From contig OY763325.1 in assembly GCA_963667315.1 (NCBI GenBank), positions 363,378-427,377 of the forward strand: a DNA stretch of 64,000 nt, in the 5' to 3' direction. The notes beneath the pieces were generated by a model. The model worked only from the letters and a program-made list of their open reading frames with translations, searched no databases and was not told where the DNA came from. Shown in pieces: positions 4,101 through 38,485 of this stretch (position 1 is the stretch's first letter; each line of letters starts with the position of its first letter). Source of the DNA: an uncultured Thermotogae bacterium (lineage in GTDB: Bacteria > Thermotogota > Thermotogae > MWEM01). A program made the translations under genes and the position numbers.

Positions 4101-5486
4101 ATATACGATTGAACCCGTTGGATTTTTATCAGTGCCATCCGGAAGAAAACGTTTGAAACTATCAGTTTCAGGAAGGTATTTGTTGAAACCTTCGTTTGTG
4201 CCGATCCACAAATTATCCTGGTTGTCTTCGTAAATAAAAGTAACAATATTATTACTTAATGAAGAATCGTCATCTGGGATATTCACATATTTAAAGATCT
4301 TTTGTTCCTTTACATCGAATTTATTAAGACCTCCGTTATAGATTCCAAACCAAAGATTTCCCTCTGAATCTTCAAGAATAGAGTTAACTTTTCCCCTTGA
4401 TATCCCAAGTTCATCTTCAGCGCTGCTACTGAACTTTCTATAATCAATTTTTCGGCGGTTTAATTTATTCAGACCATTGCCATTGGTGCCAATCCAAATG
4501 AGACCGGAATCATCAATAAAGATTGAATAAACGGTATCATGACTGAGTGAACCGGGGTTTCTCTCATCATATCTGAACTCAAGGACGCTATCACTGTTAA
4601 AATCATATTCGTAAAGACCGCCTCCCCATGTCCCTGCCCAGATTGAACGATCTTTTTCAACTTTCAATGTATATATCGTATTATCAGCAATTTTGATTAA
4701 ATCGAATTGAAATGTTTTCGGATTAAATTTTAAGAGGCCATTTCCCCAGTTTCCGATCCAAATAATACCATCTTCATCCTGGTCAAGGGCCATGATGTAA
4801 TCAGTTTTAAAAATGGGATATTGTTTTGATGAAAAGAGCTGGAAAGAATCATTCTCTTTGTTATAGAGGTTTAACCCGGTTAACGTTCCCACCCAGATAT
4901 TGCCATCATTGTCCTTTAGCAAAGATCTTATCGTATTTCCACTGATTGATTTACTCTCATCATCTGATGCCGGGTATTTTTTTATCACACCGGTTTCCGG
5001 GTTCAGTACGTTTAACCCATTTAATGTTCCGACCCAGATATTGCCATCATTATCCTTTGTGATTGCTGTAACAACTTCATTGCTCAATGATGTGTCATCA
5101 TTGGGTATATGTTTGTAATGCGTAAAAGTTTCTGAATCAATGTCGAAACGTGCTAACCCATTATAGGTCCCAATCCAGAGGACATTGTTGTCATAGTCAA
5201 GATACATTGTTTGAATCAATCTGTGGGGTAATGATGTTTTATCGTAGGGATCATGTTCATAAGTTTTAAAATTTATACCATCAAAACGGTTAAGTCCTCC
5301 CTGGGTTCCAAACCACAGAAAACCATTTTTGTCTTGTATGATCGAAGAAACGGAAGAATTTGATAATCCTTCTTTTCTCCCGAGTCTTTCGAATATATAA
5401 TTTCCTGTTGCTGAGAAATAAGCAGAAACCAAAACAATGAAAATAATAAATATAAAATATAAGCGTCTATTCAAGATATCGATCAC
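1119..5486 (-). CDS. hybrid sensor histidine kinase/response regulator with periplasmic beta-propeller repeats and C-terminal HPt
   Basis: 1455 aa. N-terminal TM, then many repeats of the type NGxLWxGTxxGLNRFD (two-component regulator propeller / Y_Y_Y-like), second TM (WWAYLLYIIIAFVLIYFILMG), HisKA H-box SHEVRTPLNSIIGF, HATPase G-boxes (DTGIGI, GGTGLGLFISK), receiver domain (ILIVEDVRINML ... DIILMDIQMPEVDG), C-terminal HPt-like AHAIKGSS. Confidence 0.9.
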   Translation of the reverse strand: MIDILNRRLYFIFIIFIVLVSAYFSATGNYIFERLGRKEGLSNSSVSSIIQDKNGFLWFGTQGGLNRFDGINFKTYEHDPYDKTSLPHRLIQTMYLDYDNNVLWIGTYNGLARFDIDSETFTHYKHIPNDDTSLSNEVVTAITKDNDGNIWVGTLNGLNVLNPETGVIKKYPASDDESKSISGNTIRSLLKDNDGNIWVGTLTGLNLYNKENDSFQLFSSKQYPIFKTDYIMALDQDEDGIIWIGNWGNGLLKFNPKTFQFDLIKIADNTIYTLKVEKDRSIWAGTWGGGLYEYDFNSDSVLEFRYDERNPGSLSHDTVYSIFIDDSGLIWIGTNGNGLNKLNRRKIDYRKFSSSAEDELGISRGKVNSILEDSEGNLWFGIYNGGLNKFDVKEQKIFKYVNIPDDDSSLSNNIVTFIYEDNQDNLWIGTNEGFNKYLPETDSFKRFLPDGTDKNPTGSIVYQMLEDKHNNLWIGYYKNGVDIWNLEENRFVNYKSDEKDSTTLSDNLVYYLIEDVEGNIWIGTNNGLNRYDEQNDNFVRYFNDPQDKNTISNNTVRTLFEDSRGNIWIGTSSGGITIMNEKTGKITHYSKKDGLSDNAISSILEDDKGNIWIATSYGINIYDYKLDQFKHITEQDGLWGMEFNQGHEKAKDGSLYFGAMHGIYVFKQTPEMINFHEPQIHIIDIKVMNENFKTKIPYYNLDEITLPYNRNFISFEFIGIDYFSPEKNQYAYKLEGVDSEWIYSGNRNYMSYSNLQPGNYTFRIKAANNDGIWNDTGTSIKLIIASPPWQTWWAYLLYIIIAFVLIYFILMGMNLKLKKESAENSNKAKSEFLANISHEVRTPLNSIIGFSTLLSETEVNDLQQQYLSTLKNSAHSLLAIINDILDISKIEAGKIEMEIIRINLPKLLEQSIDMVKYQSSVKGIELVLNISPEVPEHAYFDPVRLKQILLNLLNNAIKFTHEGEVELAVDFASSDSHTGIFSFSIRDTGIGISEEKQKRLFKSFSQADASTTRKYGGTGLGLFISKNFVNKMGGTISVESTEGAGSTFSFKVETKYDERTWLSDKSIESKQNALLIGKNTTLFNMLNKVFSEVGVVSSQIDTIEKFKSVQKGDIPFDFLIIDYHQKDHEQLTAFSLELKQKNHQPKTILLINAEDRNNFSKTVFDHSLIKPFKTDELLNLFRRAENQLPNNIDGIHKPITLKKSPKILIVEDVRINMLLISTIIKQILNSPRIYSAENGKLAFEAVANEKFDIILMDIQMPEVDGIEATKLIRKLESEKEIRTPIIALTAGAVAGEREKCLNAGMDDFLTKPINRTILEKTLLKFLSPSDMIQQEIKIISQEKNFKHFDKEQLLQKLENDKDTLMLLLDAAENDIEERIKKLKEAAEIKDYEIIRIEAHAIKGSSLEICLNKFGEMAREVEIASKEKKSDIKNLILQLDEEWAIVKKEIKRENVE

Positions 5487-19969: not shown

Positions 19970-20044
19970 TGGAGCGGAAGACGGGATTCGAACCCGCGAC
20001 CCTCTGCTTGGCAAGCAGATGCTCTACCACTGAGCCACATCCGC
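19970..20044 (-). tRNA. tRNA-Gly (anticodon GCC), CCA encoded
   Basis: Minus-strand sequence GCGGATGTGGCTCAGTGGTAGAGCATCTGCTTGCCAAGCAGAGGGTCGCGGGTTCGAATCCCGTCTTCCGCTCCA; cloverleaf foldable by hand; anticodon loop UUGCCAA. Confidence 0.9.
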
Positions 20045-20053
20045 AGAAAACTG

Positions 20054-20137
20054 TGCGAGTGATGGGAGTTGAACCCATACGAGATCATTCTCACTGAATT
20101 CTAAGTCCAGCGCGTCTGCCAATTCCGCCACACTCGC
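20054..20137 (-). tRNA. tRNA-Leu (anticodon UAG), CCA not encoded
   Basis: 84-nt minus-strand sequence GCGAGTGTGGCGGAATTGGCAGACGCGCTGGACTTAGAATTCAG ... TGGGTTCAACTCCCATCACTCGCA; long variable arm; anticodon loop CUUAGAA; perfect 7-bp acceptor stem. Confidence 0.85.
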
Positions 20138-20155
20138 GCTTCCCAAAACTCTGAA

Positions 20156-20231
20156 TGGTGAGCCGCGAGGGACTTGAACCCTCGGCCCCATGATTAAAAG
20201 TCATGTGCTCTACCGACTGAGCTAGCAGCTC
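20156..20231 (-). tRNA. tRNA-Lys (anticodon UUU), CCA encoded
   Basis: Minus-strand sequence GAGCTGCTAGCTCAGTCGGTAGAGCACATGACTTTTAATCATGGGGCCGAGGGTTCAAGTCCCTCGCGGCTCACCA; anticodon loop CUUUUAA. Confidence 0.9.
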
Positions 20232-24243: not shown

Positions 24244-25472
24244 TTTACCTTTTCTTTATTGTGCTTTGTAAAGATATAATTATAATATTTATTCAGATCT
24301 TCATCATCCATTTCTTCTATATTCTGAAAATAATTCACGTTGAAGCTTTCTTCTTCATCCAGAGAATCGGAGTATTCATCAATAGAAACCCATTGTTCAG
24401 ACGTATCCTCATCAACTTCCTCACTATCCATTGATTCAATAAGTTCATAGGCTTTTGAAATTGCCGAGTTAACGTCGAAATCATCCGGGATATTATCAAG
24501 GTGCTCATATTTAGGTGTGTAAGAAGCGACATTATTCTCTCTTAATTCGCTCTCTTCGGAACTTTCAGATTCATCTTCATCCAAAACAGCGTTTAATATT
24601 GAACTTCTTGCGTCATCAAACTCATCTGTGATATTTTCTTCAAAGTTCACGGATACATCCCGCTCAACTTCAACTGATTCCTCTGTGGGAGTCTCTTCGA
24701 ACAGTGGCTCATCATCTCCGAAAAATTTTGAAAGTTCTCTGATATCTTTTGAAGCCATTTCTTCAATATTTATCTCCTCATCAAAAGGTGTATCAAGTAA
24801 ATCTTTATCGTTTATTTCAATCGCTTCTTTCGTTTCCTCGGCTGAATCTTCCTCAGAAAAACCCGAATCGGCAGGTTTAGTTACATTATGCTGCCCGTTT
24901 AAAATATCTGGAGAAACACCTACCAGTTTAAGGGCGAGTTTACTGAACGTATTTATTTTTATTTCAATGAACAAACCGATTGCAATAATCAATACACTGA
25001 CAGCACTTAAAAGGATTATCGGTGTTAAAGTGTTTCCACTTTCCTCAGTTACGGTTGATGAAGCGGTTTGAAGTGCTGATTTACTCGCTTCATTTGTAAA
25101 TTTCTCCTCCATATCATTGTAATAGAGGAAACCCTCCGGTAGCGTTGCCTCGTGTTCATCAATTTTCTTTAAAAGGTCATCGGCTATAGGATTGCCTGTA
25201 AAAAGGTAAAGATATGTCTTGGCTGTTTTGTAATCATCATTGTTAAAGGCACTGACCCCGAGCATATATTTAATGTTAGGGGCTTTTGCCTCTATATCAG
25301 GGTTTTTGATTAGAGCGGAATGAAAATATCTTTGAGCATCAAAATAGTTACCGGAATTATAGGAATCTTTACCGGAAAAGTAAAGGGACATCGCCTCGTC
25401 CTGGTCAGAACCTGCGAATATTAAAATCGGTAACAGAATAATGCAAATTACAAAGAGTATTTTCTTGTTCAT
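24240..25472 (-). CDS. hypothetical single-pass membrane protein with TPR-like N-domain and a very acidic C-terminal tail
   Basis: 410 aa; signal/anchor MNKKILFVICIILLPILIFAG, TPR-like segment, TM helix LTPIILLSAVSVLIIAIGLFI, then about 200 aa rich in D/E/S. Start overlaps the stop of the upstream 971-aa gene by 4 nt. Confidence 0.65.
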   Translation of the reverse strand: MNKKILFVICIILLPILIFAGSDQDEAMSLYFSGKDSYNSGNYFDAQRYFHSALIKNPDIEAKAPNIKYMLGVSAFNNDDYKTAKTYLYLFTGNPIADDLLKKIDEHEATLPEGFLYYNDMEEKFTNEASKSALQTASSTVTEESGNTLTPIILLSAVSVLIIAIGLFIEIKINTFSKLALKLVGVSPDILNGQHNVTKPADSGFSEEDSAEETKEAIEINDKDLLDTPFDEEINIEEMASKDIRELSKFFGDDEPLFEETPTEESVEVERDVSVNFEENITDEFDDARSSILNAVLDEDESESSEESELRENNVASYTPKYEHLDNIPDDFDVNSAISKAYELIESMDSEEVDEDTSEQWVSIDEYSDSLDEEESFNVNYFQNIEEMDDEDLNKYYNYIFTKHNKEKVK

Positions 25473-28384
25473 TCAAGTATTGCCACCTTTTTAAGGAAAT
25501 AATGTGCATCTTTTTTGGTTAAGACCATCATATTGCCATTCGACATAACGGCATCTTTTATTTTCTCGTCATCCGGTATATCAAAGTAGGTTCCTTTTGG
25601 CTGTTTATACTGATAATCAATGATATTGAATTTATTTTTACCGACCACAATAACCTGCTGTGGGTTTTTCAGAACTTTTATGCCTCCTGTGTTATTAGAC
25701 GTTAAGAGCAGTTCTTTTTTACCGTCAAGGCTTATGACCCTTAAAGAATAATCCGAAGCAATCACATACAGTGAATCCTGTGCTATTATACCCGTTAATA
25801 AATTGATATCATTACTATATGGTCTGTATATCTCATGACATTCCTTTCCGTTAAAGAGATAAACTGCTTCATCCGTAATAATATAAGGATACATGCCATG
25901 CATGATTATTTCTCCGTAATGACCATCAAGTTTGAAGGATGAAAAAGGTGTTTCAAGTGTCAAACCATTATAATGAAGGAGGTAATATTGGACAGAATCG
26001 TTGATACCGATGGATAAAACCGGGGCATCAAACATCAGATATTCCATTTTAACCGGTTCACCATTTATATACTGTGTCAGGATATTGTCATGAACTGAAA
26101 AAAGACTTCCGGAATAGGTTGTATAAGCAAAGCTTTGATTGTCATTGATTCGATTAAAAATTCCGTTGTTAAAATAGACAATCCCCTTGTTGTCAAAAAG
26201 ATATAGCGAACCGTTGACACTTGTCATTCCATACGGCTCTATATCATCAGGTATTTTAAACTGATTATAGTTGTACACAATCATATTATTTATGTTGCTG
26301 AATTTCTGCGGTATTTCAGTACCATTCCACATAGATGAATCCGGTTGATATGTTTTAAGATCTCCGGTGTGATTATTTTTAGAAATTGTGTCTGTAGAAT
26401 TACTGGTGTTATTTATATCGTTGAGAATAGAAACGATAGTGTCAATTCTACTATTGTCAGCTATAGCTGATTCACTTGCCGGAGATGTTGTCCCGGAAGA
26501 ACTGGCAGATATCGTGTTGTCAGTATCCTGATGATTTGAAGTATTATTGTTGTCGGAGGCTGTATTGGATTCAGATGTTTCACTTTCCGTTGTTGTTGAA
26601 GTTACGGTTTGATTATTGTTATTAAAAAACTGATTTCGCCAGCGTTCAAGATCCGAATCAACAGAATCTGTTGCGCTTTTATCAGATATCTGTTCCGTTG
26701 CAGAACCGGTTGTATCGGTACTGTTCAAATCAACAGAACTTTCAGTTGAATTTTGATCAGTATCGGGTAATCGGATGTCTTCGTTCGCCGTTAAAGTTGA
26801 CCCTGTATCGAATAACCATTCTTTAAAAGTATCATCCTTAAATTCAGGAACTTCTACAACTTCTATTCCCTGTTCAAGGAATGCAAATATATACTGCAAG
26901 GTCTGTTGCTGCATGAATATATCAAAGAAAGAGAAAGGGAAAGTCTTGAACGTGATATTTTCCATATTATTTGTTGCTTCATCAACTGCAGGGGCAATAG
27001 CACTGTAAACCGAAACGATTCCGTCACCTTTTTCAAGAGTGTTTTCAGGGTAAAATTTCGCAAATTGTGAATCCTGAAGATCGGCATTAAAATCAGGTTT
27101 GCTACCTGCAACGAAGAAATATTCTATATCTTCTCTAATCGAAGTTTGTAAAGTGTTAATTGTTTCGGAATATGGCAGTATATCGATATAAAATGTGTTG
27201 ACCTTTTCAAGATAACTTAAATTATTCCTTTCAAGGTATCGAATTGTATCTGATGTCAGACCATATATTTTCGAAAGAATTTCCGGATCCTTTCCATAGA
27301 TTAAATTTAAAAAAGAAGGGTTTACGATGTTTGAACCTGAATTTGGAACAGAAACCAAAACCATCTTTCTGACATTGGTAATTGGATAATTTTCTACGGC
27401 ATATCTCGCAATGATTCCACCGATACCGTGTGCGATAATGTCAAAGGTTTTATTTGATGAAAGTAGTTTTTGAGCGAGTTTATCTGCTTCAAAACGAACA
27501 TAACTTTTCATCGATATTGTATTGAAAAAGGTTTTAGCTTCGGTAACATAATCCATTGTACGGGTTTCAGTCAAGGGATACTGATAGACCCATATACTTC
27601 TATCGGGGAAAGTAACTTCCCATAAATTATTTCCTTGCGGGTTTGAATTTGAAATCGTATTTGGGAGAAAACCTTTGAAATTTGAATCAATTCCCGGAAT
27701 TAGCATAAGATCAGGCTTAAGTGTATCTTCTTTTTCGATTATTTCCTTTAAACCAAGTTCGGGTTTTACCGGATTGCTGATTCTCAGTCCAATTAAGGAG
27801 CCATGAAACCCTTTTGCCCGGAGGACCGGCTGACTATTGCTGTTTTCATAAATCTCTCCACCCGAAAAGACTCTAACGACGGGGTTCTCTTTATCCTCAA
27901 TGTAGATGAGTTCCGCATTGTTAAATTCTTTTCCAAAATAGAACTCACCGGGAATTAAATAGTCGTACGTCATAGGTTCCAGGGCAAGATCGGTTCTCCC
28001 GTCGACTGGTGTTAATTCATAAATATCTCCATAAAAATTTCCGAGCTGCTTGAAGTTGTCATACGCTGCATTCCTTGGGATTTCTTCTATCCTGAATTTT
28101 TTAGGGTATGGGAAAGCATTTTCAGGTATGGTAATTGAAAGATCTTTTATATCGGTTTTTACCTGCGTTTGATCTTCTCCGGTACTTTCTATTTCAGCTT
28201 CAGCATCTTTCATAGATAGAGTGAGTACGATTATTATAACGACTACGGCCCCAACAGCTGAAAGATAAATAATACTCATCAAGCGATGTGTTTTAAAATA
28301 TTGGATCAGATTTTTTATACTAAATTTTTTGAATGCTTTTGGGATATCCTTTACTTTATTCAGGAGACTTTTAAAAAAAGACAA
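25469..28384 (-). CDS. large membrane-anchored protein with a degenerate lipase-like (PGAP1/DUF676-type) alpha/beta-hydrolase domain, S/T/N-rich linker and C-terminal beta-rich domain
   Basis: 971 aa; N-terminal TM (IIYLSAVGAVVVIIIVLTL); FDIIAHGIGGIIARYAV sits where lipases have GHSMGG (nucleophile Ser replaced by Gly) and LMLIPGIDSN where the oxyanion-hole HG motif is expected; low-complexity S/T/N linker; paralogous to the 629-aa ORF at 55839-57545. Confidence 0.65.
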   Translation of the reverse strand: MSFFKSLLNKVKDIPKAFKKFSIKNLIQYFKTHRLMSIIYLSAVGAVVVIIIVLTLSMKDAEAEIESTGEDQTQVKTDIKDLSITIPENAFPYPKKFRIEEIPRNAAYDNFKQLGNFYGDIYELTPVDGRTDLALEPMTYDYLIPGEFYFGKEFNNAELIYIEDKENPVVRVFSGGEIYENSNSQPVLRAKGFHGSLIGLRISNPVKPELGLKEIIEKEDTLKPDLMLIPGIDSNFKGFLPNTISNSNPQGNNLWEVTFPDRSIWVYQYPLTETRTMDYVTEAKTFFNTISMKSYVRFEADKLAQKLLSSNKTFDIIAHGIGGIIARYAVENYPITNVRKMVLVSVPNSGSNIVNPSFLNLIYGKDPEILSKIYGLTSDTIRYLERNNLSYLEKVNTFYIDILPYSETINTLQTSIREDIEYFFVAGSKPDFNADLQDSQFAKFYPENTLEKGDGIVSVYSAIAPAVDEATNNMENITFKTFPFSFFDIFMQQQTLQYIFAFLEQGIEVVEVPEFKDDTFKEWLFDTGSTLTANEDIRLPDTDQNSTESSVDLNSTDTTGSATEQISDKSATDSVDSDLERWRNQFFNNNNQTVTSTTTESETSESNTASDNNNTSNHQDTDNTISASSSGTTSPASESAIADNSRIDTIVSILNDINNTSNSTDTISKNNHTGDLKTYQPDSSMWNGTEIPQKFSNINNMIVYNYNQFKIPDDIEPYGMTSVNGSLYLFDNKGIVYFNNGIFNRINDNQSFAYTTYSGSLFSVHDNILTQYINGEPVKMEYLMFDAPVLSIGINDSVQYYLLHYNGLTLETPFSSFKLDGHYGEIIMHGMYPYIITDEAVYLFNGKECHEIYRPYSNDINLLTGIIAQDSLYVIASDYSLRVISLDGKKELLLTSNNTGGIKVLKNPQQVIVVGKNKFNIIDYQYKQPKGTYFDIPDDEKIKDAVMSNGNMMVLTKKDAHYFLKKVAILE

Positions 28385-29329: not shown

Positions 29330-30682
29330 TTATAAATAATTTTCCTGTATGATCTTTTTTAAATACCCGATAACATATAACGAACCTGTAATAAGTATCG
29401 GTGCATCGAGTTTTCTTGATAGCTCAACAGCTTTTTCACAAGCCTTTATATGTTCCGGTTCATAATGTACATCATGAGCGTCCCTAATCTTTTTATAGGC
29501 ATCAACAATTAATCTGGTATCCGTTTCCCTTGGTGCATTGGGTTCTGTTACGATTACTTCCTTTGAAATGGATGATAGCTGTGATGTCATAAAAGCGTAA
29601 TCCTTTCCACTGAGCATTCCTGTTAGAAGGACAGCTTTTTTTTCTGGGAAATAAATGTTCCAGTTTTTGATCAATGCTTTAATTCCTTCCGGATTATGCG
29701 CGCCATCAACGATAACAGGGTTTTTCTCAGTTTCGTTCAGTACCTCAAATCGTCCGGGCCAGTATGCCTTCTTTAATCCTTTTCTCAATGCGTCAATATC
29801 CGGATCTATGGTATTTTTCTCACAATAGGCAAGATAAGCCATGATGGCTGTTGATGCATTCTGGAATTGATGAATACCGTTCATTGTTAATTCTATATTA
29901 TCTAAAGTTAAATTTTCAGAATGGAAAGTGAAGCGATTTGAATTGATCTGATTGCTGAGCGCTTCGAAAGAATAATCCCTGTTCACGAGATACATTTTTG
30001 CGTTTTTTTCATTAGCAACATGCGCAATGATTTCAACGGCATCCTTTTTGGTTGTTCCGCAAACCAGTGGCACTTCTTCTTTGATAATGCCTGCTTTTTC
30101 AGCTGCAATCAAAGGTATCGTATCCCCAAGAGTTTTGGTATGATCGAGACCTATTGAGGTGATGATGGTTACATCGGGTGTGAGTGCTGTTGTGGCATCC
30201 AGTCTTCCACCGAGTCCAACTTCCACTGCTGCCACATCTACTCTCTTGTTTTTAAAATATTTAAATGCCATTGCGGTTGTACATTCAAAAAAGCTGGGCT
30301 TCATTTCATCGGATTGAGCATCCATTATGGCAACTGCTTCACTAAGTTGATTGGCTACGGTTACAATATCTTCATCACTGATCATTTCGTTGTTGAATGT
30401 AATTCTTTCATTGAATTTTACCAAATGCGGTGAGAAATTTGCCCCTGTTCTGAGCCCAAGTGTAGTGAAGATGGTAGATAATATTCTTGTGACAGACCCT
30501 TTTCCGTTTGTTCCCGCAACCTGAATGGCTTTGAAAGAATTTTCGGGATTTCCGGCATTTCTCAACAAGGTTTTAATTCTTTGAAGACCAAGCTTAATTG
30601 TTCCATGTGGTCTGGATTTAAAAAAATACTGTAATGTATCATCAATGTTTTCAAATTTTATGATTTCAATTTCTTTTTTCAT
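29330..30682 (-). CDS. folC: folylpolyglutamate synthase / dihydrofolate synthase
   Basis: 450 aa; Mur-ligase P-loop VAGTNGKGSV, folC-type overall pattern. Confidence 0.85.
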   Translation of the reverse strand: MKKEIEIIKFENIDDTLQYFFKSRPHGTIKLGLQRIKTLLRNAGNPENSFKAIQVAGTNGKGSVTRILSTIFTTLGLRTGANFSPHLVKFNERITFNNEMISDEDIVTVANQLSEAVAIMDAQSDEMKPSFFECTTAMAFKYFKNKRVDVAAVEVGLGGRLDATTALTPDVTIITSIGLDHTKTLGDTIPLIAAEKAGIIKEEVPLVCGTTKKDAVEIIAHVANEKNAKMYLVNRDYSFEALSNQINSNRFTFHSENLTLDNIELTMNGIHQFQNASTAIMAYLAYCEKNTIDPDIDALRKGLKKAYWPGRFEVLNETEKNPVIVDGAHNPEGIKALIKNWNIYFPEKKAVLLTGMLSGKDYAFMTSQLSSISKEVIVTEPNAPRETDTRLIVDAYKKIRDAHDVHYEPEHIKACEKAVELSRKLDAPILITGSLYVIGYLKKIIQENYL

Positions 30683-30984
30683 TTATTTTTGAACCCTCCA
30701 AGTTGATATACGTAAACTATTACCTCCGCAACTGCTTTATAAAGTTCAGGAGGTATTTCAGAATAATAATCCAGTTCAAGAAGCTTTTCCACGAGCTTTT
30801 CATCAGAGTAAATAGGAATATCATTTTCAATGGCAATCTCAACAATACGCCGTGCAAGTTCTCCTTTTGCCTGTGCAATCAGTCGAGGGACAGGCCCTGC
30901 CTCAGGGTCATATTTTAAAGCTGCGGCTTCTGTTATCTCATCTTCAAGTATATTCTTTCCAAATTGATTTTTTTTAGGTGTCAT
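30679..30984 (-). CDS. FlhB C-terminal-domain-like small protein (EscU/YscU/FlhB cytoplasmic-domain homolog, YlqH-like)
   Basis: 101 aa; PVPRLIAQAKGELARRIVEIAIENDIPIYSDEKLVEKL matches the conserved core of FlhB/YscU C-domains; no TM region and no NPTH autocleavage site seen. Confidence 0.65.
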   Translation of the reverse strand: MTPKKNQFGKNILEDEITEAAALKYDPEAGPVPRLIAQAKGELARRIVEIAIENDIPIYSDEKLVEKLLELDYYSEIPPELYKAVAEVIVYVYQLGGFKNK

Positions 30985-33584
30985 GCCAGTTTAATAAACC
31001 CTCCATCTCTTTTGTTATCGGTATACAGCTTCACTTTATGTTTAAGGATATCATTTTGATTAGCTTTTTCGCGGATTAAAAGACTTCTTAGCTTATAATC
31101 GGTTTCTTTTATTCTTTTAGAAAGAACCGACGAGTGATTGGTAAATTCACCGGTATGTTCCTGCCCGGCATATATATAGATATCAAGATTTTCACCGCTG
31201 ACAATCGTATCAATAAATACATTTCCAAACCGCTGAGTATCTGTTTCAATATAAACCCTGTACATTTCGGTTTTATCATAACCGCTTTTATTGACACTCT
31301 GCTTTTGAAAATCAACGGCAAACGGTTGCCCGTTAAAGTTCAATAATGCAGAGTATACATGATTGAACTCGTTTTTATCTGAAGTGATGTTTAACATTTT
31401 TAAAAGTTTTTCGGAATTGATTTCATTTTTTTCGGATAAACCCGACTGCAAAGGTTTATCTTCTGTTGTTTTTAACTTTGAATCTAAAGTAGTTTCTTGC
31501 GTTGTTCGATCATCTTTTATTACCGGTGATTTTTCCTGATCAGCGGCTGCTATATTATTTTTAAGTGTAATGGCTTCTTTTCCTCTTGCATTTAGGGATT
31601 TTGATTCTTCAAGTGTATTGACTATCTGTTTCTTTTCTGATGATGAAAGATTGGCAGCTATTTCTTTTGGCAGCTTTGTTAATTGTTTGGTTTCTTGATA
31701 TGGATCATTCTTGATTTGGGAGTTCTTTTCCAAGCCCGCGCTTTTAGAGGTCGTTTCCTGTTTCATTTCCGCTTGCGTATTGGTGTCCATTTTTCTTTGA
31801 CTCTGTGAAGGAGAATTTCTATTTGAATCCGTATCATCCGGTGATGAAATTAATTTTTGAACGAAATCTTTAACAATAATATACGCTTTCTGTGAAAAAG
31901 ACTGTATTCTTGAAATTAAAGATCTTTCATCTGATTGGGCAACTTTGTTGTCAATAATCAACTGAGGAAGTTTAAGTTTAAGGTAGTTTTTTAAAGAATT
32001 GGGGAAAATATTCTGAGCCGTATCCGGTTCTTTAAATGATCTGACAGCTATATTGACAATATCATTTGCGATTAAGACGGTTTCTTTTGGTGGAATACCG
32101 AGTCCATTCAACTGACGCAGTATATTTTTAATCTCAAACTTCAACATAGGATCATTTTTAATGGTTTCAAAGGAGAATTCCTTTGAGATTAAACGCGAGA
32201 AAACTTCTCGGTTTATCTTGATGGACTCAAAATTAATCTGCTCCTCATTTCCCGCTTTTACAAGTTTATTGAGGACAGTCAAGATATTTTTATCCTCAAG
32301 TGGCAGATTATTCTGTTTAATGGTTTCTTCCAATCTTAAATGGAGAGGATGAGTCACTTTTTCTGTTAATAAAGGAGACGTATTGCCCGATATTTTGAGA
32401 GATTCAAATTTTTCTGAGATATGATTTAAGTTTTCATGATTTTTCTCAAGATTTATAGGCTTGCTGATTAGCTCTTTCAAAAGGCCTTTCAATTCGTTAA
32501 CAGTGTTTTTAATCAACTCTTCTTTTGATGCGGGGTCTGTCTGAGTCGATTGATATTTTACATTGAATATGTGTTTGGAAACTGTGCCGGTAATTTGTTT
32601 TTGAATACGGTTCTTTTCCGTATTCACTGTATTTGATGTCTGATTTTCCTCTTGAATCACTGCCTTACCCGTAAAGGTAGAAGGCGGTTGTTCTTTGTTT
32701 TCAACCATTCCTTTGTTTGATGATGTTTTATTTAAAGAGAATGATGGTTTCAAAAGGGTTTCAGAGGCATTTTGAGCAGTCTGTTTGATAACGTTTTTAT
32801 GGGGAAAAGGCTTATCAAAAGAGGGTTTATCTTTTGGCTCAATCAACTTGGAGTCTGAAGATTTAATCTTTTTATCAGAATGATTCCCTTTTTCAGATTC
32901 ATCCTGTATATTTTGCAAAAGAACCCCAGATTCCTTTTTACCGGAATCGGATAGGATCTCAGTTTTTTCTGAATCCCCTTTTAATATTTTTTTGAAATCA
33001 AAGAGAACAAATTCCTTGATGATTTCCTTTTTAATCTTGTCAGGTATATAATCCCATGCCTTGCCCATTGCCTTTGCCTTCAATGAAATTTCTATCAGGC
33101 GTCTGTTAAACGGAAGACGTGAATCATATAAATCGAAGGCATTTTTTGTGTTTTCTACACTCTCTTTTATTTCAATATTAAAATCCTCTTTCAGAATGGA
33201 TTCAGCAAGGTTGGAAATTTGATTCGAGACATGAGCAAATCTCATTTTTTCCGATTGTGGCATTTTATTGATTAAGGTTTCCAACTCCTGTGAAGTCTTA
33301 AACGGTAACGATAGAGAATAGACGTCTATCAGCTTTGCACCGATTTTCTTTAATACTTCACTTGAAACTTCTTGGGGAAGATCTTTACCAAAAAAAACTT
33401 GTATCATATCACCGGTTTTAATCTTTCCGACATTTCCGGGCTCTATTTTATATACTTTATCCTTTATTAAAACCTGTATTTCCTTCCCGTTTTTGGAAAT
33501 AACTTTACCGAGTTGGGCTTCTCCTTTAGTTTTAGAATCAGCCTTTTTTATGTTAATCGGGATTGATATTTGTGAGATATTCAT
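30981..33584 (-). CDS. large protein with FliK-like (hook-length-control type) C-terminal domain
   Basis: 867 aa; the C-terminal approximately 100 aa (FAVDFQKQS ... RFGNVFIDTIVSGENLDIYIYAGQEH ... LSKRIKE) follow the alternating-hydrophobic pattern of the FliK C-terminal domain; stop overlaps the start of the FlhB-like gene (ATGA). Confidence 0.45.
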   Translation of the reverse strand: MNISQISIPINIKKADSKTKGEAQLGKVISKNGKEIQVLIKDKVYKIEPGNVGKIKTGDMIQVFFGKDLPQEVSSEVLKKIGAKLIDVYSLSLPFKTSQELETLINKMPQSEKMRFAHVSNQISNLAESILKEDFNIEIKESVENTKNAFDLYDSRLPFNRRLIEISLKAKAMGKAWDYIPDKIKKEIIKEFVLFDFKKILKGDSEKTEILSDSGKKESGVLLQNIQDESEKGNHSDKKIKSSDSKLIEPKDKPSFDKPFPHKNVIKQTAQNASETLLKPSFSLNKTSSNKGMVENKEQPPSTFTGKAVIQEENQTSNTVNTEKNRIQKQITGTVSKHIFNVKYQSTQTDPASKEELIKNTVNELKGLLKELISKPINLEKNHENLNHISEKFESLKISGNTSPLLTEKVTHPLHLRLEETIKQNNLPLEDKNILTVLNKLVKAGNEEQINFESIKINREVFSRLISKEFSFETIKNDPMLKFEIKNILRQLNGLGIPPKETVLIANDIVNIAVRSFKEPDTAQNIFPNSLKNYLKLKLPQLIIDNKVAQSDERSLISRIQSFSQKAYIIVKDFVQKLISSPDDTDSNRNSPSQSQRKMDTNTQAEMKQETTSKSAGLEKNSQIKNDPYQETKQLTKLPKEIAANLSSSEKKQIVNTLEESKSLNARGKEAITLKNNIAAADQEKSPVIKDDRTTQETTLDSKLKTTEDKPLQSGLSEKNEINSEKLLKMLNITSDKNEFNHVYSALLNFNGQPFAVDFQKQSVNKSGYDKTEMYRVYIETDTQRFGNVFIDTIVSGENLDIYIYAGQEHTGEFTNHSSVLSKRIKETDYKLRSLLIREKANQNDILKHKVKLYTDNKRDGGFIKLA

Positions 33585-34018: not shown

Positions 34019-35092
34019 TTAATATCTGAATGTTCCAAATTTTTTCCCCACTTTTTCGGTATCCCTGCAATATTGCATGACACTTTCTTTTGTTATCAAT
34101 TTGTTTTCATATGCCTCGATTAAAGCATCATCAAAGGACTTCATCCCAAACTTTTTCCCCGTTTCCATCAGCGTTCCTATCTGATGAAGTTTCTGTTCTC
34201 TGATCAGATTTCTGACGCCGGGTGTTGCGAGCATGATTTCAGCAACAGGAAAAAAACCCTCGTCGTCAGCTTTTCGGACTAAACGCTGATATAGAACACC
34301 AATGAGAGAATTAGCGAGCTGTAGTGTAATCTGTTTTTGCTGATGAGCCGGAAAAACATCGATAATTCTTTCCGGTGCTGTTGGCGCGGAATTTGTATGA
34401 ATGGTTCCGAATACAAGATGTCCCGTTTCTGCTGCTGTCAAAGCGAGTGCCATCGTATCAAGATCCCTCATTTCTCCCACGAGTATAACATCCGGATCCT
34501 GCCTCAAGGCGTATTTCAATCCGTCTTTAAAAGAGTCGGTATCCAATCCGAGTTCCCTTTGATGAACAAGTGCTTTCTTGCTTTCAAATATATATTCTAT
34601 CGGGTCTTCTACGGTGAGGATATGAACATTTTTGATCATGTTGATATGTTCAAGCATCGCTGCCATAGAAGTTGATTTACCACTTCCGGTGGGACCTGCA
34701 ACGAGGATCAGTCCGCTTTTTTTCTCGCTCCATTCTTTTAATACAGCGGGTAGTTTTAGCTCCTCAAGTGTTCTGACTTTCTTTGTGATAATTCTGAAAG
34801 CGGCAGCTGGATTTCTTCTTTCGTAATAAATGTTCGCTCTGACACGAATGACATCCTTAATTCCGAATGAAAAATCAAGTTCTTTCTGTTCACCTTTTTT
34901 AAGATTAATTTTTTCATAAAGGTATTCAAGGCTTTTTTCCAATTCCTCTTTGCTAAAGATCGGAACATCCTGAAGGCGCTGTAATTCACCAAAGACCCTG
35001 TAAACAGGGTGCTCGCCAACAGAAAGATGCACATCTGATGCATTAAGTCTGTGTGCATGATAAATAAGTTTTGGTATATCAATAATTGCCAT
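34019..35092 (-). CDS. pilT: type IV pilus retraction ATPase PilT
   Basis: 357 aa; PilT N-terminal signature ASDVHLSVGEHPVYRV, Walker A GPTGSGKST, Asp box, Walker B DPDVILVGEMRD, His box GHLVFGTIHT. Confidence 0.9.
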   Translation of the reverse strand: MAIIDIPKLIYHAHRLNASDVHLSVGEHPVYRVFGELQRLQDVPIFSKEELEKSLEYLYEKINLKKGEQKELDFSFGIKDVIRVRANIYYERRNPAAAFRIITKKVRTLEELKLPAVLKEWSEKKSGLILVAGPTGSGKSTSMAAMLEHINMIKNVHILTVEDPIEYIFESKKALVHQRELGLDTDSFKDGLKYALRQDPDVILVGEMRDLDTMALALTAAETGHLVFGTIHTNSAPTAPERIIDVFPAHQQKQITLQLANSLIGVLYQRLVRKADDEGFFPVAEIMLATPGVRNLIREQKLHQIGTLMETGKKFGMKSFDDALIEAYENKLITKESVMQYCRDTEKVGKKFGTFRY

Positions 35093-35971: not shown

Positions 35972-38485
35972 TTAAACGGGAAGACCAATACGCTTCATGA
36001 AATCTTCCAATTGCATAATCATGGCACCGGAATTTCTGGCTATCGGTTCTAAATGTTTATAACTATCATCAAATATAGCGATATCCGGTTTGTATGCCAA
36101 CCCATCCCGGAGTTCAAATCCAAGCATTTTAGACATCATTTCAATTTTTAGCCAGTTTTCCTCATTCTCTGTTAACACCGATATGATCTTTCCCGACAAA
36201 AGATTTTCTTCATCCTGTGCATCATTGCTTTTTGGATCTCCTAGAGTGTCTTGAAGGGTATCTTCTCTTCGTTCTTCATTTCCGGGAAGGTTCGTCGATC
36301 GGTTCACTTCTGTTGAATGGGAATCTAAATCATTGCGTTCAGAAGGCATATCGGAATCCGAGGAAAAATTATTTTTTATTATTTCAAAAATTTCCCGATG
36401 TGCGATATCTTCTTCGGAACTGTCTTTATTTTCAAGCGTTGGTGGCAGCGTTTCATTTATTACAAAGTTTCTATCTTTATCCGTTGCGTCAATATTTGTG
36501 TTCTTATTTAAAGCGAAATTTTCCTCTTCTTGTATATCGGAATCTTCAACGATAAGACCTGCGAGTAAAGAATCTTTCAAATTATCATAGTCGCCACCTG
36601 ATACTGTATCCGCGATATGAGCATCTTTCTGTTCGCTGTCCGCTTTTAACGTTTCTGACAACTCATGTGAACTTTCCTGATTCATTATCAAGGTGTCAAG
36701 CGAATGTATTGCTTCTGCTGCTTTATCACCGGTCTTTGCTACTTCAGCCTTATCACTGTCGGAGTGGGCTTCAGTAGTCTTTATTGCTGTTTCCTCGTTT
36801 TTTACACCATTTTCTTTTTTATTGAGAAGCTTTTCATCTACTTCGGTCAATAATGCTGCATCAATATCCTCCCTTAATCGAGAATATTCTTTATGACTAC
36901 AGACAGGATTTCTTGTAATGATACTGTTTTCACCCTCTGTGTTTATGATAAACAAGTCGGTTTTTTCAATCTTTGTGAGGAAATGACTGAATGCTTCATC
37001 TGTTGAGTGATGTGAATAGTATCCCGAATCGACGATCGTTGAATCAAGAATTCTGATGAGATAATGGATTTCTTTTTTGTTTAAAGTTTTTATATCAATT
37101 ATTCTTAATTTATGAAGCGAATCGTGAGGTATTTTTGGCTTTTCAGTTGAGCTAGTCTGTTTTTGCTGATCTTTATTATTTTCATTAACGATCATGGAAT
37201 CGAGGAATTTTAAAGGTTCGGAGGGTTCTATTTTTTTCTTTTTTCTCTCTTTTTCTATTCGACTGTTGCTTTTTTGGTCAGTAAATTTGTCTGTGTTGGT
37301 TTTCTTGTTCATTTCTATTTCATTTTTAGATGCTGTTATGCTGTCAATCGTTTCATTTTCTTCTTCTTCTTCTTCTTCTTCTGTTTTTTCCGGAATCGGT
37401 GAATCTGCGATTATCTGTGTCTCTTCATCTTGTGGTGGCTTTTTTGGGGCCTTTTTGTTTTTGAGAAATTTGGTATCGTCCGCTTCGTGCTCAGCTTTAA
37501 TTATTTTTTTCAGAGCTTCTATTTCCCCTTCTGATAGGAAAGAATAGTTTTCCCGAACCAAAATGTCAAAACTCATTGCAGGTGACTGTTCCCCTTCTTT
37601 TTCTATTTGCTGCCTGATTATCTTTAGATCAAGCCAATTTTCGGGGTAAAAACTGATAAATTCAGAACCCGTTATCGGTGAGAATTTATAAACTTCCTGC
37701 ATTAATTTCTGAAGAGCTTCAAAATCAATTGAGGAGAAAAAAACTTTATAAGCTCTTGTTTTTTCAATTTCTTCTTTTGTCAGGATTAACTTGCCGGCTT
37801 CTTGCAAAAGAAGAGAAAAAGCGGTTGTAATAATATTTTCTGCCTCTTCTTTTTTTAGTTCTTTAGCAGAATTGGTAAACATCATCTTTTTTACCTTTTT
37901 ACTCTCTGTATCATCAATATTTTGAGAGATCCCGAAAATATTTAGGATTTCATCACTCATAATTACATTTGTTTCTGGAACTAAAAATCTGCAAAGGTTT
38001 AGCATTATCGGCATATTTCTTGAGCCGTCATCAAATCGAACCAGAGGGGACAATTTCCTTTCAATCTCCGATTTTAGGATGCTGAGATTGACCTCACGAG
38101 AACCTGAAATCTCCTGAAGAAATTGATAGGTTTGATTTTCGTTTGAAAGGTATGACATCACGTTTAATTGACTTTTTATCAATCTGTCAAATAGATCACC
38201 ACGCAGAAAAACATAATCACCGTTGCTGTTCGTGCCGGTAAGTATGAGATCCAATTCCGATTTTTCAACGAGTTCTGCGATCCATCTTGACAAAATATGC
38301 TGGAGTTCTTTATCTTTGATACGGAGTTTGTTAATGATGTCTTTGGATGTGAACTTATCTTTTAATGATTCGGTATATCTCCTGACTAATTGTGCGTATT
38401 CTTCATTAAGTGTTAAATTTTCACTTGCATCGAATCTGATGTTTTCAGGTGCTGAATTTTCTTTCTTTTTAAATAAATTCATCAT
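35972..38485 (-). CDS. hypothetical large acidic protein (poly-Glu tract)
   Basis: 837-aa ORF directly upstream of the HlyD-like gene and pilT; D/E/K-rich with an E8 run; no enzymatic motif recognised. Confidence 0.65.
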   Translation of the reverse strand: MMNLFKKKENSAPENIRFDASENLTLNEEYAQLVRRYTESLKDKFTSKDIINKLRIKDKELQHILSRWIAELVEKSELDLILTGTNSNGDYVFLRGDLFDRLIKSQLNVMSYLSNENQTYQFLQEISGSREVNLSILKSEIERKLSPLVRFDDGSRNMPIMLNLCRFLVPETNVIMSDEILNIFGISQNIDDTESKKVKKMMFTNSAKELKKEEAENIITTAFSLLLQEAGKLILTKEEIEKTRAYKVFFSSIDFEALQKLMQEVYKFSPITGSEFISFYPENWLDLKIIRQQIEKEGEQSPAMSFDILVRENYSFLSEGEIEALKKIIKAEHEADDTKFLKNKKAPKKPPQDEETQIIADSPIPEKTEEEEEEEENETIDSITASKNEIEMNKKTNTDKFTDQKSNSRIEKERKKKKIEPSEPLKFLDSMIVNENNKDQQKQTSSTEKPKIPHDSLHKLRIIDIKTLNKKEIHYLIRILDSTIVDSGYYSHHSTDEAFSHFLTKIEKTDLFIINTEGENSIITRNPVCSHKEYSRLREDIDAALLTEVDEKLLNKKENGVKNEETAIKTTEAHSDSDKAEVAKTGDKAAEAIHSLDTLIMNQESSHELSETLKADSEQKDAHIADTVSGGDYDNLKDSLLAGLIVEDSDIQEEENFALNKNTNIDATDKDRNFVINETLPPTLENKDSSEEDIAHREIFEIIKNNFSSDSDMPSERNDLDSHSTEVNRSTNLPGNEERREDTLQDTLGDPKSNDAQDEENLLSGKIISVLTENEENWLKIEMMSKMLGFELRDGLAYKPDIAIFDDSYKHLEPIARNSGAMIMQLEDFMKRIGLPV
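37358..37381. repeat. (TTC)8 / (GAA)8 trinucleotide repeat encoding the E8 run
   Basis: Perfect 24-nt TTC repeat on the + strand, inside the 837-aa coding region. Confidence 0.9.

What the first reader, a model, noticed from the sequence alone, without database searches (positions are those of the whole stretch)
30679..33584. FliK-like large protein translationally coupled to a soluble FlhB-C-terminal-domain homolog, without other flagellar genes
The 101-aa protein carries the conserved core of the FlhB/YscU cytoplasmic domain (PVPRLIAQAKGELARRIVEIAIENDIPIY) but no membrane domain and no NPTH autocleavage site. The upstream 867-aa protein ends in a segment with a FliK C-domain-like pattern. 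In flagellar and injectisome systems FliK-C and FlhB-C interact to switch export specificity; here the pair sits between folC and Mini-III/pilT with no other flagellar or type III secretion genes in 64 kb, so the function of this FlhB-C fold pair is unclear.
Basis: partly seen in the sequence, partly recalled or inferred. Interest (0 to 1): 0.5.

Follow-up and report, generated by a model that had tools for sequence, protein, structure and literature searches.

The report
Thermotogota copy of FliK2–FlhX gene pair
This is a divergent Thermotogota version of a two-gene module already known in other bacteria (a FliK-like "ruler" protein followed by FlhX, a free-standing copy of the last piece of the flagellar export-switch protein FlhB), so it is real but not a new kind of system, and what the module does is still unknown anywhere.

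Summary
Both ORFs exist as described: 867 aa (30981-33584, -) and 101 aa (30679-30984, -), overlapping by ATGA. The 101-aa protein is a clear homologue of the FlhB C-terminal subdomain (Pfam Bac_export_2 E 6e-17). It starts where FlhB has its NPTH cleavage site and has no membrane domain, which makes it an FlhX/YlqH-type protein. The 867-aa protein has no Pfam hit above threshold. Its conserved last ~142 aa are still best read as a FliK-type T3S4 domain, on four weak but agreeing results: sub-threshold Flg_hook hits, in-register profile alignments to Flg_hook proteins and to E. coli FliK, PscP switch domain as top Foldseek hit, and conserved pairing with FlhX. In six FlhX loci from other phyla, a Pfam-positive Flg_hook gene sits directly upstream of flhX, and none has a recognised flagellar structural or export gene within 6-8 kb. 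P. putida fliK2-flhX is already published. The "orphan" position is therefore the norm for this module. The pair and its neighbours are conserved in 15 Thermotogota MAG loci, and FlhX is one of the best-conserved genes there. I could not test whether the source genome has a flagellum. Verdict: new, divergent member of a known, functionally uncharacterised kind. Interest is low to moderate.

The parts
30981..33584 (-). Gene for the 867-aa FliK-like (YlqG/FliK2-type) protein; ATG at 33584, GGGGTG 5 nt upstream, 34-nt gap after the Mini-III-like gene
   Evidence: ORF list. Start confirmed by the conserved MNI N-terminus in 14 orthologues. Junction sequence.
32970..33584 (-). Conserved N-terminal region (aa 1-205): a beta-rich stretch (aa ~26-66) followed by helices
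   Evidence: Mean column identity 0.48-0.67. In-register hhalign match of aa ~6-65 to the N-termini of FlhX-linked Flg_hook proteins, P 0.005. AF2 model is poor for aa 1-70 and pLDDT 70-90 for the helical part. No fold match.
32520..32969 (-). Variable polar linker 1 (aa 206-355), rich in K/S/E/T/N, with many insertions and deletions between orthologues
   Evidence: Conservation 0.13-0.16; 75% polar or disorder-promoting residues. Length variation in A1.
31740..32519 (-). Moderately conserved middle region (aa 356-615)
   Evidence: Conservation 0.22-0.47; conserved blocks in A1. No family assignment.
31410..31739 (-). Variable polar linker 2 (aa 616-725)
   Evidence: Conservation 0.17-0.40; 72% polar residues.
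30984..31409 (-). Conserved C-terminal domain (aa 726-867), inferred FliK-type T3S4 / Flg_hook-like domain
30679..30984 (-). Gene for the 101-aa FlhX (YlqH-type) protein: a free-standing FlhB_CC homologue
   Evidence: Pfam Bac_export_2 6e-17, C-terminal 74 profile positions only. TIGR00789 1.1e-23. Alignment to FlhB. 74-88% identity across the clade.
30981..30984 (-). ATGA overlap of the fliK-like stop and the flhX start (translational coupling); GGAGGG at 30999-31004
   Evidence: Sequence read directly. The same 4-nt overlap is seen in most Thermotogota loci and in L030, L032, L033 and L035.
30679..30682 (-). ATGA overlap of the flhX stop and the folC-like start; GGAGGG at 30694-30699
   Evidence: Sequence read directly.

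Best explanation
The two genes are the Thermotogota orthologues of the FliK2/YlqG-FlhX/YlqH module, an accessory pair linked to the flagellar type III export apparatus.

Shown here:
- FlhX is a soluble copy of FlhB_CC, the piece of FlhB that NPTH autocleavage releases. It starts at the position of the cleavage site, so it needs no cleavage.
- It keeps the conserved AP/VP and AVAE positions.
- The upstream protein has ruler-like architecture: a conserved N-terminal region, variable-length polar linkers, and a conserved C-terminal domain that is best read as a FliK-type T3S4 domain.
- The genes are translationally coupled.
- The pairing is conserved across several phyla.

Inferred:
- FlhX can occupy the FlhB_CC position at the export gate, which is the 'spare part' activity reported for H. 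pylori HP1575. Alternatively it holds or buffers the T3S4 domain in the cytoplasm.
- Either way, the pair would modulate the switch from early (rod/hook) to late (filament) export substrates.
- Its place in a long housekeeping gene string (pilT-like, Mini-III, fliK-like, flhX, folC, polyprenyl synthase) suggests constitutive, low-level expression rather than control by the flagellar regulon.
For: FlhX identity. T3S4-like C-domain. Both ends of the large protein align in order and in register with FlhX-linked Flg_hook proteins (P 0.005 and 0.007). Coupling. Pair and synteny are conserved in 15 Thermotogota MAG loci. FlhX is 74-88% identical where FolC is 44-77% and the FliK-like protein 32-57% (the higher figures for L005 and L007 cover only ~23% of the query), which indicates strong purifying selection. 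A Flg_hook gene lies directly upstream of flhX in 6 of 6 loci from Acetivibrio, Synergistetes-like, Nitrospirae-like and other lineages. Literature: the P. putida fliK2-flhX operon is FliA-dependent, and FlhX partially replaces FlhB function in H. pylori (bioRxiv 10.1101/2021.08.29.457346, citing Pallen 2005, Wand 2006 and Smith 2009). An 'flhX-fliK' pair lies outside the main cluster in Nitratiruptor (PMC9321776). FlhX is treated as a flagellar T3SS-associated component in comparative surveys (PMC10746217).
Confidence: 0.7

Rival explanations
1. The module works independently of flagella. The T3S4-like/FlhB_CC-like pair is a stand-alone cytoplasmic complex with a housekeeping or regulatory role, and the lineage may have no flagellum at all.
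For: In this window and in the six other loci examined, no recognised flagellar structural or export gene lies near the pair. The neighbours are housekeeping genes: rimM-trmD-rplS-ylqF-rnhB in L030/L032, ylqF-rnhB two genes further upstream in L028, and Mini-III/folC here. The ATGA coupling to folC suggests co-expression with core metabolism. No flagellar genes were found among 40 window ORFs. FlhX is very strongly conserved.
Against: The only experimental data known are flagellar: H. pylori FlhX substitutes for FlhB_CC, and P. putida fliK2-flhX is FliA-dependent. In L033 and L035 the pair lies next to genes typical of flagellin glycosylation (MptE-like/Maf, NeuB, CTP_transf_3). From my memory of the TIGR00789 description, which I did not check here, the family was noted only in species that also have FlhB. 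Housekeeping neighbours are also seen in flagellated Firmicutes.
Confidence: 0.15
2. The 867-aa protein is the organism's only FliK, the true hook-length ruler, rather than a second FliK-like paralogue. FlhX would be its dedicated partner.
For: Ruler-like architecture with variable-length linkers; orthologues range from 806 aa (a partial sequence) to 1053 aa. A C-terminal T3S4-like domain. An 'flhX-fliK' pair is reported as the FliK locus in Nitratiruptor.
Against: In B. subtilis (from memory) and P. putida, a canonical fliK exists in addition to the FlhX-linked paralogue. The gene is not next to flgD/flgE or other hook genes. The well-conserved, apparently folded N-terminal 200 aa differ from the largely disordered FliK N-terminus known from Salmonella (established knowledge).
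Confidence: 0.1
3. The FliK-like resemblance of the large protein is due to chance. Only FlhX belongs to a known family, and the upstream gene is an unrelated lineage-specific protein.
Against: Independent weak signals all point to the same domain, at the same terminal position and in the same register. The control alignment of bona fide Flg_hook proteins to E. coli FliK is hardly stronger (P 0.014). The top Foldseek hit out of 350,542 chains is a T3S4 domain. The gene occupies the position, directly upstream of flhX and mostly with the same 4-nt overlap, that a Flg_hook gene holds in 6 of 6 other lineages.
Confidence: 0.05

Closest known systems
FlhX (H. pylori HP1575) / B. subtilis YlqH / NCBIfam TIGR00789 'FlhB-like flagellar biosynthesis protein'
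   Same: A protein of about 90-100 aa homologous only to the FlhB_CC part of FlhB. It has no membrane domain and no NPTH. It begins at the position of the FlhB cleavage site and keeps the AAL-Y-D strand, the conserved P, and the IPxELYxAVAE helix.
   Different: It has 12-20 extra N-terminal residues compared with other FlhX proteins. It scores below the curated TIGR00789 cutoff (83 vs 117 bits). It is also translationally coupled to folC downstream. Function is untested here.
FliK2 (P. putida PP_4328) and other FlhX-linked Flg_hook proteins (B. subtilis YlqG position; L028, L030, L032-L035)
   Same: Encoded directly upstream of flhX, mostly with a 4-nt overlap. Has a C-terminal FliK-type domain and an N-terminal beta stretch that aligns in register. 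No recognised flagellar structural or export gene lies nearby.
   Different: Two to three times longer: 867 aa here and roughly 800-1050 aa in the clade, against 330-554 aa. It has two variable polar linkers and an extra conserved middle region. Its C-domain has diverged so far that Pfam Flg_hook does not reach threshold.
FliK (flagellar hook-length ruler) and YscP/PscP (injectisome needle-length ruler) with their T3S4 domain
   Same: Ruler-like layout. The C-terminal domain aligns to E. coli FliK residues 264-320, and its model superposes on the PscP switch domain (rmsd 2.1-2.3 A over ~70 residues). The partner is a FlhB_C-type domain.
   Different: Not encoded with hook or needle genes. The inferred partner is a free FlhB_CC copy rather than the membrane-anchored FlhB/SctU. 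Secretion and length measurement are untested.
Full-length FlhB / SctU (YscU, EscU)
   Same: The same C-terminal fold family (Bac_export_2), 29-40% identity to the C-termini of FlhB proteins in L015-L026.
   Different: Lacks the four-helix membrane domain, the linker, the FlhB_CN strand and the NPTH autocleavage site. It is therefore not an export-gate subunit by itself.

Membership tests
FlhX / YlqH (TIGR00789, FlhB_CC-only proteins) | Homology restricted to the C-terminal (post-cleavage) subdomain of FlhB | tested here: met
   Pfam Bac_export_2 E 6e-17, profile positions 262-335 of 335. Alignment A6.
FlhX / YlqH (TIGR00789, FlhB_CC-only proteins) | Short soluble protein (~85-110 aa) without a membrane domain and without NPTH | tested here: met
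   101 aa. In A6 the FlhX proteins begin 5-20 residues before the column of the FlhB NPTH and have EITE or similar there.
FlhX / YlqH (TIGR00789, FlhB_CC-only proteins) | Score above the curated NCBIfam cutoff for TIGR00789 | tested here: not met
   83.2 bits against a cutoff of 117.35, although it is the best-scoring NCBIfam model. This is a formal annotation threshold, not a biological feature. Source databases annotate close orthologues as 'flagellar biosynthesis protein' or 'EscU/YscU/HrcU family ... switch protein'.
FlhX / YlqH (TIGR00789, FlhB_CC-only proteins) | Can take over FlhB_CC function at the flagellar export gate | not testable with these tools
   Known only for H. pylori HP1575 (title of Wand et al. 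2006; summary).
FliK / Flg_hook (T3S4-domain ruler proteins) | C-terminal Flg_hook (PF02120) domain above the Pfam gathering score | tested here: not met
   No hit for the window protein at E<=1. 5 of 10 orthologous C-domains hit below threshold, best E 0.0016. Distant members score 14-23 bits against a cutoff of 29.8.
FliK / Flg_hook (T3S4-domain ruler proteins) | T3S4 fold of the C-terminal domain | tested here: inconclusive
FliK / Flg_hook (T3S4-domain ruler proteins) | Profile-level homology to bona fide Flg_hook proteins / FliK | tested here: inconclusive
   hhalign P 0.007 to six Flg_hook proteins. P 0.077 to E. coli FliK residues 264-320, against a control of 0.014. Alignments are in register, but the statistics are weak.
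FliK / Flg_hook (T3S4-domain ruler proteins) | Encoded with hook/rod genes; secreted by the flagellar T3SS; sets hook length | tested here: not met
   The gene context is housekeeping. Secretion and length control cannot be tested with these tools.
FlhX-linked FliK paralogues (FliK2 / YlqG type) | Gene directly upstream of flhX on the same strand, usually with overlapping stop and start | tested here: met
   ATGA overlap. Same arrangement in 15 Thermotogota loci and in L028-L035.
FlhX-linked FliK paralogues (FliK2 / YlqG type) | Shared N-terminal beta stretch plus C-terminal Flg_hook domain | tested here: inconclusive
   N-terminus P 0.005, C-terminus P 0.007. Both are in the right order and register, and both are weak.
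Full-length FlhB / SctU export-gate subunit | N-terminal four-helix membrane domain and NPTH autocleavage site | tested here: not met
   The 101-aa protein aligns only to the last ~80 residues of 353-356-aa FlhB proteins. NPTH is absent.

The most novel reading that the evidence does not exclude
This Thermotogota clade has no flagellum, yet keeps the FliK-like/FlhX pair intact and under strong purifying selection inside a housekeeping operon. If so, the widespread T3S4 / FlhB_CC two-gene module has a flagellum-independent function. One possibility is a cytoplasmic switch or chaperone pair that predates, or was borrowed from, the type III export gate.
Probability: 0.12. Interest if true: 0.65.

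Novelty: new member of a known kind. Interest (0 to 1): 0.27.

Why it matters
FlhX and its FliK-like partner are conserved across several phyla and have been counted among flagellar genes since 2005, yet their role is still unknown. The Thermotogota version extends the family to proteins that current Pfam and NCBIfam models miss. It also shows that the pairing, the 4-nt overlap and the placement away from flagellar structural and export genes are ancient features of the module. That helps annotation: these 800-1050-aa 'hypothetical proteins' can be labelled FliK-like and FlhX-associated. It also supports the view that the two proteins act together. It does not in itself reveal a new mechanism.

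Tried and rejected
- **Pfam/NCBIfam on the full 867-aa protein:** nothing at E<=1.
- **C-domain profile against PDB sequences:** no hit at E<=10.
- **Word-indexed homologue search with the C-domain profile:** only three more fragments of the same family.
- **Exhaustive profile search (1.84 billion representatives):** 34 hits. About 14 are true family members. The multi-stretch hits I scanned (five of them) are TPR/NACHT proteins matching profile positions ~40-100, and I rejected this class of hit as spurious.
- **Full-length hhalign, A1 vs A4:** only the C-terminal match appeared. The N-terminal match needed sub-alignments.
- **AF2 of the N-terminal 201 aa:** low confidence for aa 1-70, and no meaningful PDB fold match.
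- **afdb50 fold search:** not available.
- **Looking up the source contig through the exact proteins:** The look-up of encoding contigs had no record. The cluster look-up showed only that the window proteins sit on a 3,981,887-bp NCBI/ENA contig.
- **Distant loci L015 and L018-L027 from the genome scan:** these are ordinary full-length flhB, in most of them followed by a ~700-aa ORF of flhA size. I used them only as FlhB references.
- **Sigma-70 promoter and terminator scan around the pair:** promoter-like sites no more frequent than in shuffles; terminator-like sites more frequent (16 vs 7.4), but none between these genes. Nothing informative for the pair.
- **Literature on ylqG/ylqH:** no functional study in the searchable library. 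Wand et al. 2006 is not held.


Full report
**Observation.** The mechanical ORF list confirms an 867-aa ORF at 30981-33584 (-) and a 101-aa ORF at 30679-30984 (-). The stop of the first overlaps the start of the second (ATGA at 30984-30981, GGAGGG 14 nt upstream). The stop of the second overlaps the ATG of the folC-like gene in the same way (ATGA at 30682-30679, GGAGGG 11 nt upstream). The 867-aa gene starts 34 nt after the Mini-III-like gene and has a GGGGTG Shine-Dalgarno sequence. The pair lies inside a long co-directional, tightly packed string of minus-strand genes: HlyD-like, PilT-like ATPase, Mini-III-like RNase, the pair, FolC-like, polyprenyl synthase, and a 971-aa hydrolase-like protein. 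Window GC is 34-41%.

**The small protein.**
- Pfam gives Bac_export_2 at E 6e-17 (62 bits, cutoff 24.4), matching only the last 74 of 335 profile positions.
- The best NCBIfam model is TIGR00789 'FlhB-like flagellar biosynthesis protein' (1.1e-23, 83 bits, below its curated cutoff of 117). Full-length FlhB and SctU models follow, matching only through their C-termini.
- I aligned it with eight other short homologues and five full-length FlhB proteins from loci fetched here. All short proteins begin 5-20 residues before the column where FlhB has NPTH. None has NPTH (the window protein has EITE there).
- All keep the following AAL-Y-D strand, the invariant proline, and the IPxELYxAVAE helix.
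- From memory, the conserved AP and AVAE positions correspond to the hydrophobic substrate-binding pocket of Salmonella FlhB_C. I did not verify this here.
- This is the FlhX/YlqH family, defined by Pallen et al. 2005. H. pylori HP1575 was shown to act as a 'spare part' for FlhB_CC (reference title; summary).

**The large protein: overall layout.** It has no Pfam or NCBIfam hit at E<=1. The word-indexed search found only 11 homologues, all from Thermotogota metagenome bins or unnamed metagenome contigs. An alignment of 15 orthologues shows five regions:

| Region | Residues | Character |
|---|---|---|
| N-terminal region | 1-205 | conserved |
| Linker 1 | 206-355 | very variable, polar, indel-rich |
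| Middle region | 356-615 | moderately conserved |
| Linker 2 | 616-725 | variable |
| C-terminal domain | 726-867 | conserved |

Protein length ranges from 806 aa (a partial sequence) to 1053 aa.

**The large protein: evidence that the C-terminal domain is FliK-like.**
- (i) Scanned alone, 5 of 10 orthologous C-domains hit Pfam Flg_hook below threshold, best E 0.0016.
- (ii) An exhaustive profile search of 1.84 billion representatives found about 14 family members. The most distant ones (P0020, P0021, P0023, P0043) carry sub-threshold Flg_hook hits exactly where they align to my profile (E 0.04 to 9e-5). The TPR proteins in that list are spurious.
- (iv) hhalign against six Pfam-positive Flg_hook proteins aligns the C-domains in register at P 0.007. 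The N-terminal beta stretches also align in register, at P 0.005.
- (v) Against E. coli FliK the profile aligns to residues 264-320, the T3S4 core, at P 0.077. The Flg_hook control alignment reaches only P 0.014 on the same segment.

No single result is decisive. Together with the gene context below, I put the probability that this is a divergent FliK-type domain at about 0.85.

**Context in relatives.**
- Fifteen Thermotogota MAG loci share the order PilT-like, Mini-III, large protein (roughly 830-1035 aa where it is complete), FlhX (93-110 aa), FolC, polyprenyl synthase, and a ~950-aa protein. Most have the same 4-nt overlap between the large gene and flhX.
- FlhX is 74-88% identical across this clade, comparable to the PilT-like ATPase (66-96%). 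FolC is 44-77% and the FliK-like protein 32-57%. FlhX is therefore under strong constraint and is not a decaying remnant.
- The next nearest FlhX homologues are from Synergistetes-like, Nitrospirae-like, Acetivibrio and other lineages, at 45-58% identity.
- In all six such loci I fetched, a protein with a recorded Pfam Flg_hook hit (330-554 aa) lies directly upstream of FlhX. Four of the six have a 4-nt overlap.
- None of the six has a recognised flagellar structural or export gene within the 6-8 kb fetched on each side. L030 and L032 show rimM-trmD-rplS-lepB-ylqF-rnhB-[Flg_hook]-[FlhX]-HD-UPF0102. L028 (Acetivibrio) has ylqF-rnhB upstream, with two unrelated genes between them and the pair, and UPF0102 downstream. 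L033 and L035 lie beside MptE-like/NeuB sugar genes.
- From memory, the ylqF-rnhB position is the position of B. subtilis ylqG-ylqH. YlqG has at least 457 residues.

**Literature.**
- The P. putida flagellar-cluster study names PP_4328-PP_4329 fliK2-flhX. It reports a FliK C-terminal domain in FliK2 and FliA-dependent transcription. It states that the function of fliK2 is uncharacterised and that of FlhX poorly understood.
- A Campylobacterota study mentions an 'flhX-fliK' pair lying outside the main flagellar cluster in Nitratiruptor.
- An Actinobacteria survey lists FlhX among the flagellar T3SS-associated proteins.

**What could not be settled.** The window proteins are identical to proteins on a 3,981,887-bp NCBI/ENA contig. 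I could not retrieve that contig or scan genomes again. Whether this organism has a flagellar regulon is therefore untested. Within the window, 40 ORFs scanned with Pfam include no flagellar, chemotaxis or type III family.

**Interpretation.** It is, however, a divergent Thermotogota member of the already known FliK2/YlqG-FlhX/YlqH module, whose normal habitat is outside flagellar clusters. The most likely mechanism is inferred, not shown:
- The T3S4-like C-domain of the large protein binds FlhX, as FliK_C acts on FlhB_C.
- FlhX either substitutes for FlhB_CC at the export gate or buffers the T3S4 domain in the cytoplasm, tuning the early-to-late switch in export substrates.

The main alternative is a flagellum-independent role, at about 0.15. 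It would be interesting, and it is directly testable by scanning complete genomes of this clade for core flagellar genes.

**Scores.** Interest 0.27. Novelty: new member of a known kind.

Noticed in passing
window 30679-30682: The flhX stop overlaps the start of the folC-like gene (ATGA), so FlhX is translationally coupled to a folate-metabolism gene as well as to the FliK-like gene. flhX-folC adjacency is conserved in the Thermotogota loci. It is overlapping in L001, L010-L013 and this window, but separated by a 10-20 nt gap in most others.
   Followed up: partly
window 35972-38485 (-): An 837-aa, very acidic, low-complexity protein with no Pfam hit at E<=0.001 lies four genes upstream of the 867-aa gene in the same gene string. 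Function unknown.
   Followed up: no
window 25469-28384 (-): A 971-aa protein has only weak alpha/beta-hydrolase-like hits (DUF7379, Palm_thioest) around aa 290-357 and a long S/T/N-rich linker. It is conserved (40-73% identity) and syntenic in the Thermotogota loci.
   Followed up: partly
window 34019-34083: The mechanically called Mini-III-like ORF (GTG start, 154 aa) overlaps the end of the PilT-like gene by 65 nt. Most orthologues are 139-147 aa, so the true start is probably further downstream.
   Followed up: no
window 1119-5486 (-): A 1455-aa hybrid sensor kinase has Reg_prop beta-propeller repeats, a Y_Y_Y domain, HisKA/HATPase_c and a receiver domain. This architecture is typical of Bacteroidota polysaccharide sensors and is unusual to see in a Thermotogota genome.
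   Followed up: no
window 19970-20231 (-): A cluster of three tRNA genes (Gly-GCC, Leu-TAG, Lys-TTT).
   Followed up: no
one search hits P0022, P0024-P0041: The C-domain profile (positions ~40-100) produced multi-stretch hits with E down to 7e-19. The five I scanned are TPR_12/TPR_10-rich NACHT/STAND proteins. This looks like a repeat-driven artefact and is a caution for anyone reusing the profile.
   Followed up: partly
L033 1-6059 and L035 1-4974: In two non-Thermotogota loci the Flg_hook-FlhX pair lies next to, and divergent from, nonulosonic-acid synthesis genes (NeuB in L035, CTP_transf_3 in both). L033 also has an MptE-like (Maf-type) protein. These genes are typical of flagellin glycosylation islands. 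This is the only flagellum-related neighbourhood seen for the pair.
   Followed up: no
source genome: The window proteins map to a single 3,981,887-bp contig. From memory, that is larger than any cultured Thermotogota genome (Mesotoga prima ~3 Mb). With ~36% GC and no close cultured relative among the FlhX hits, the lineage itself may merit a look.
   Followed up: no
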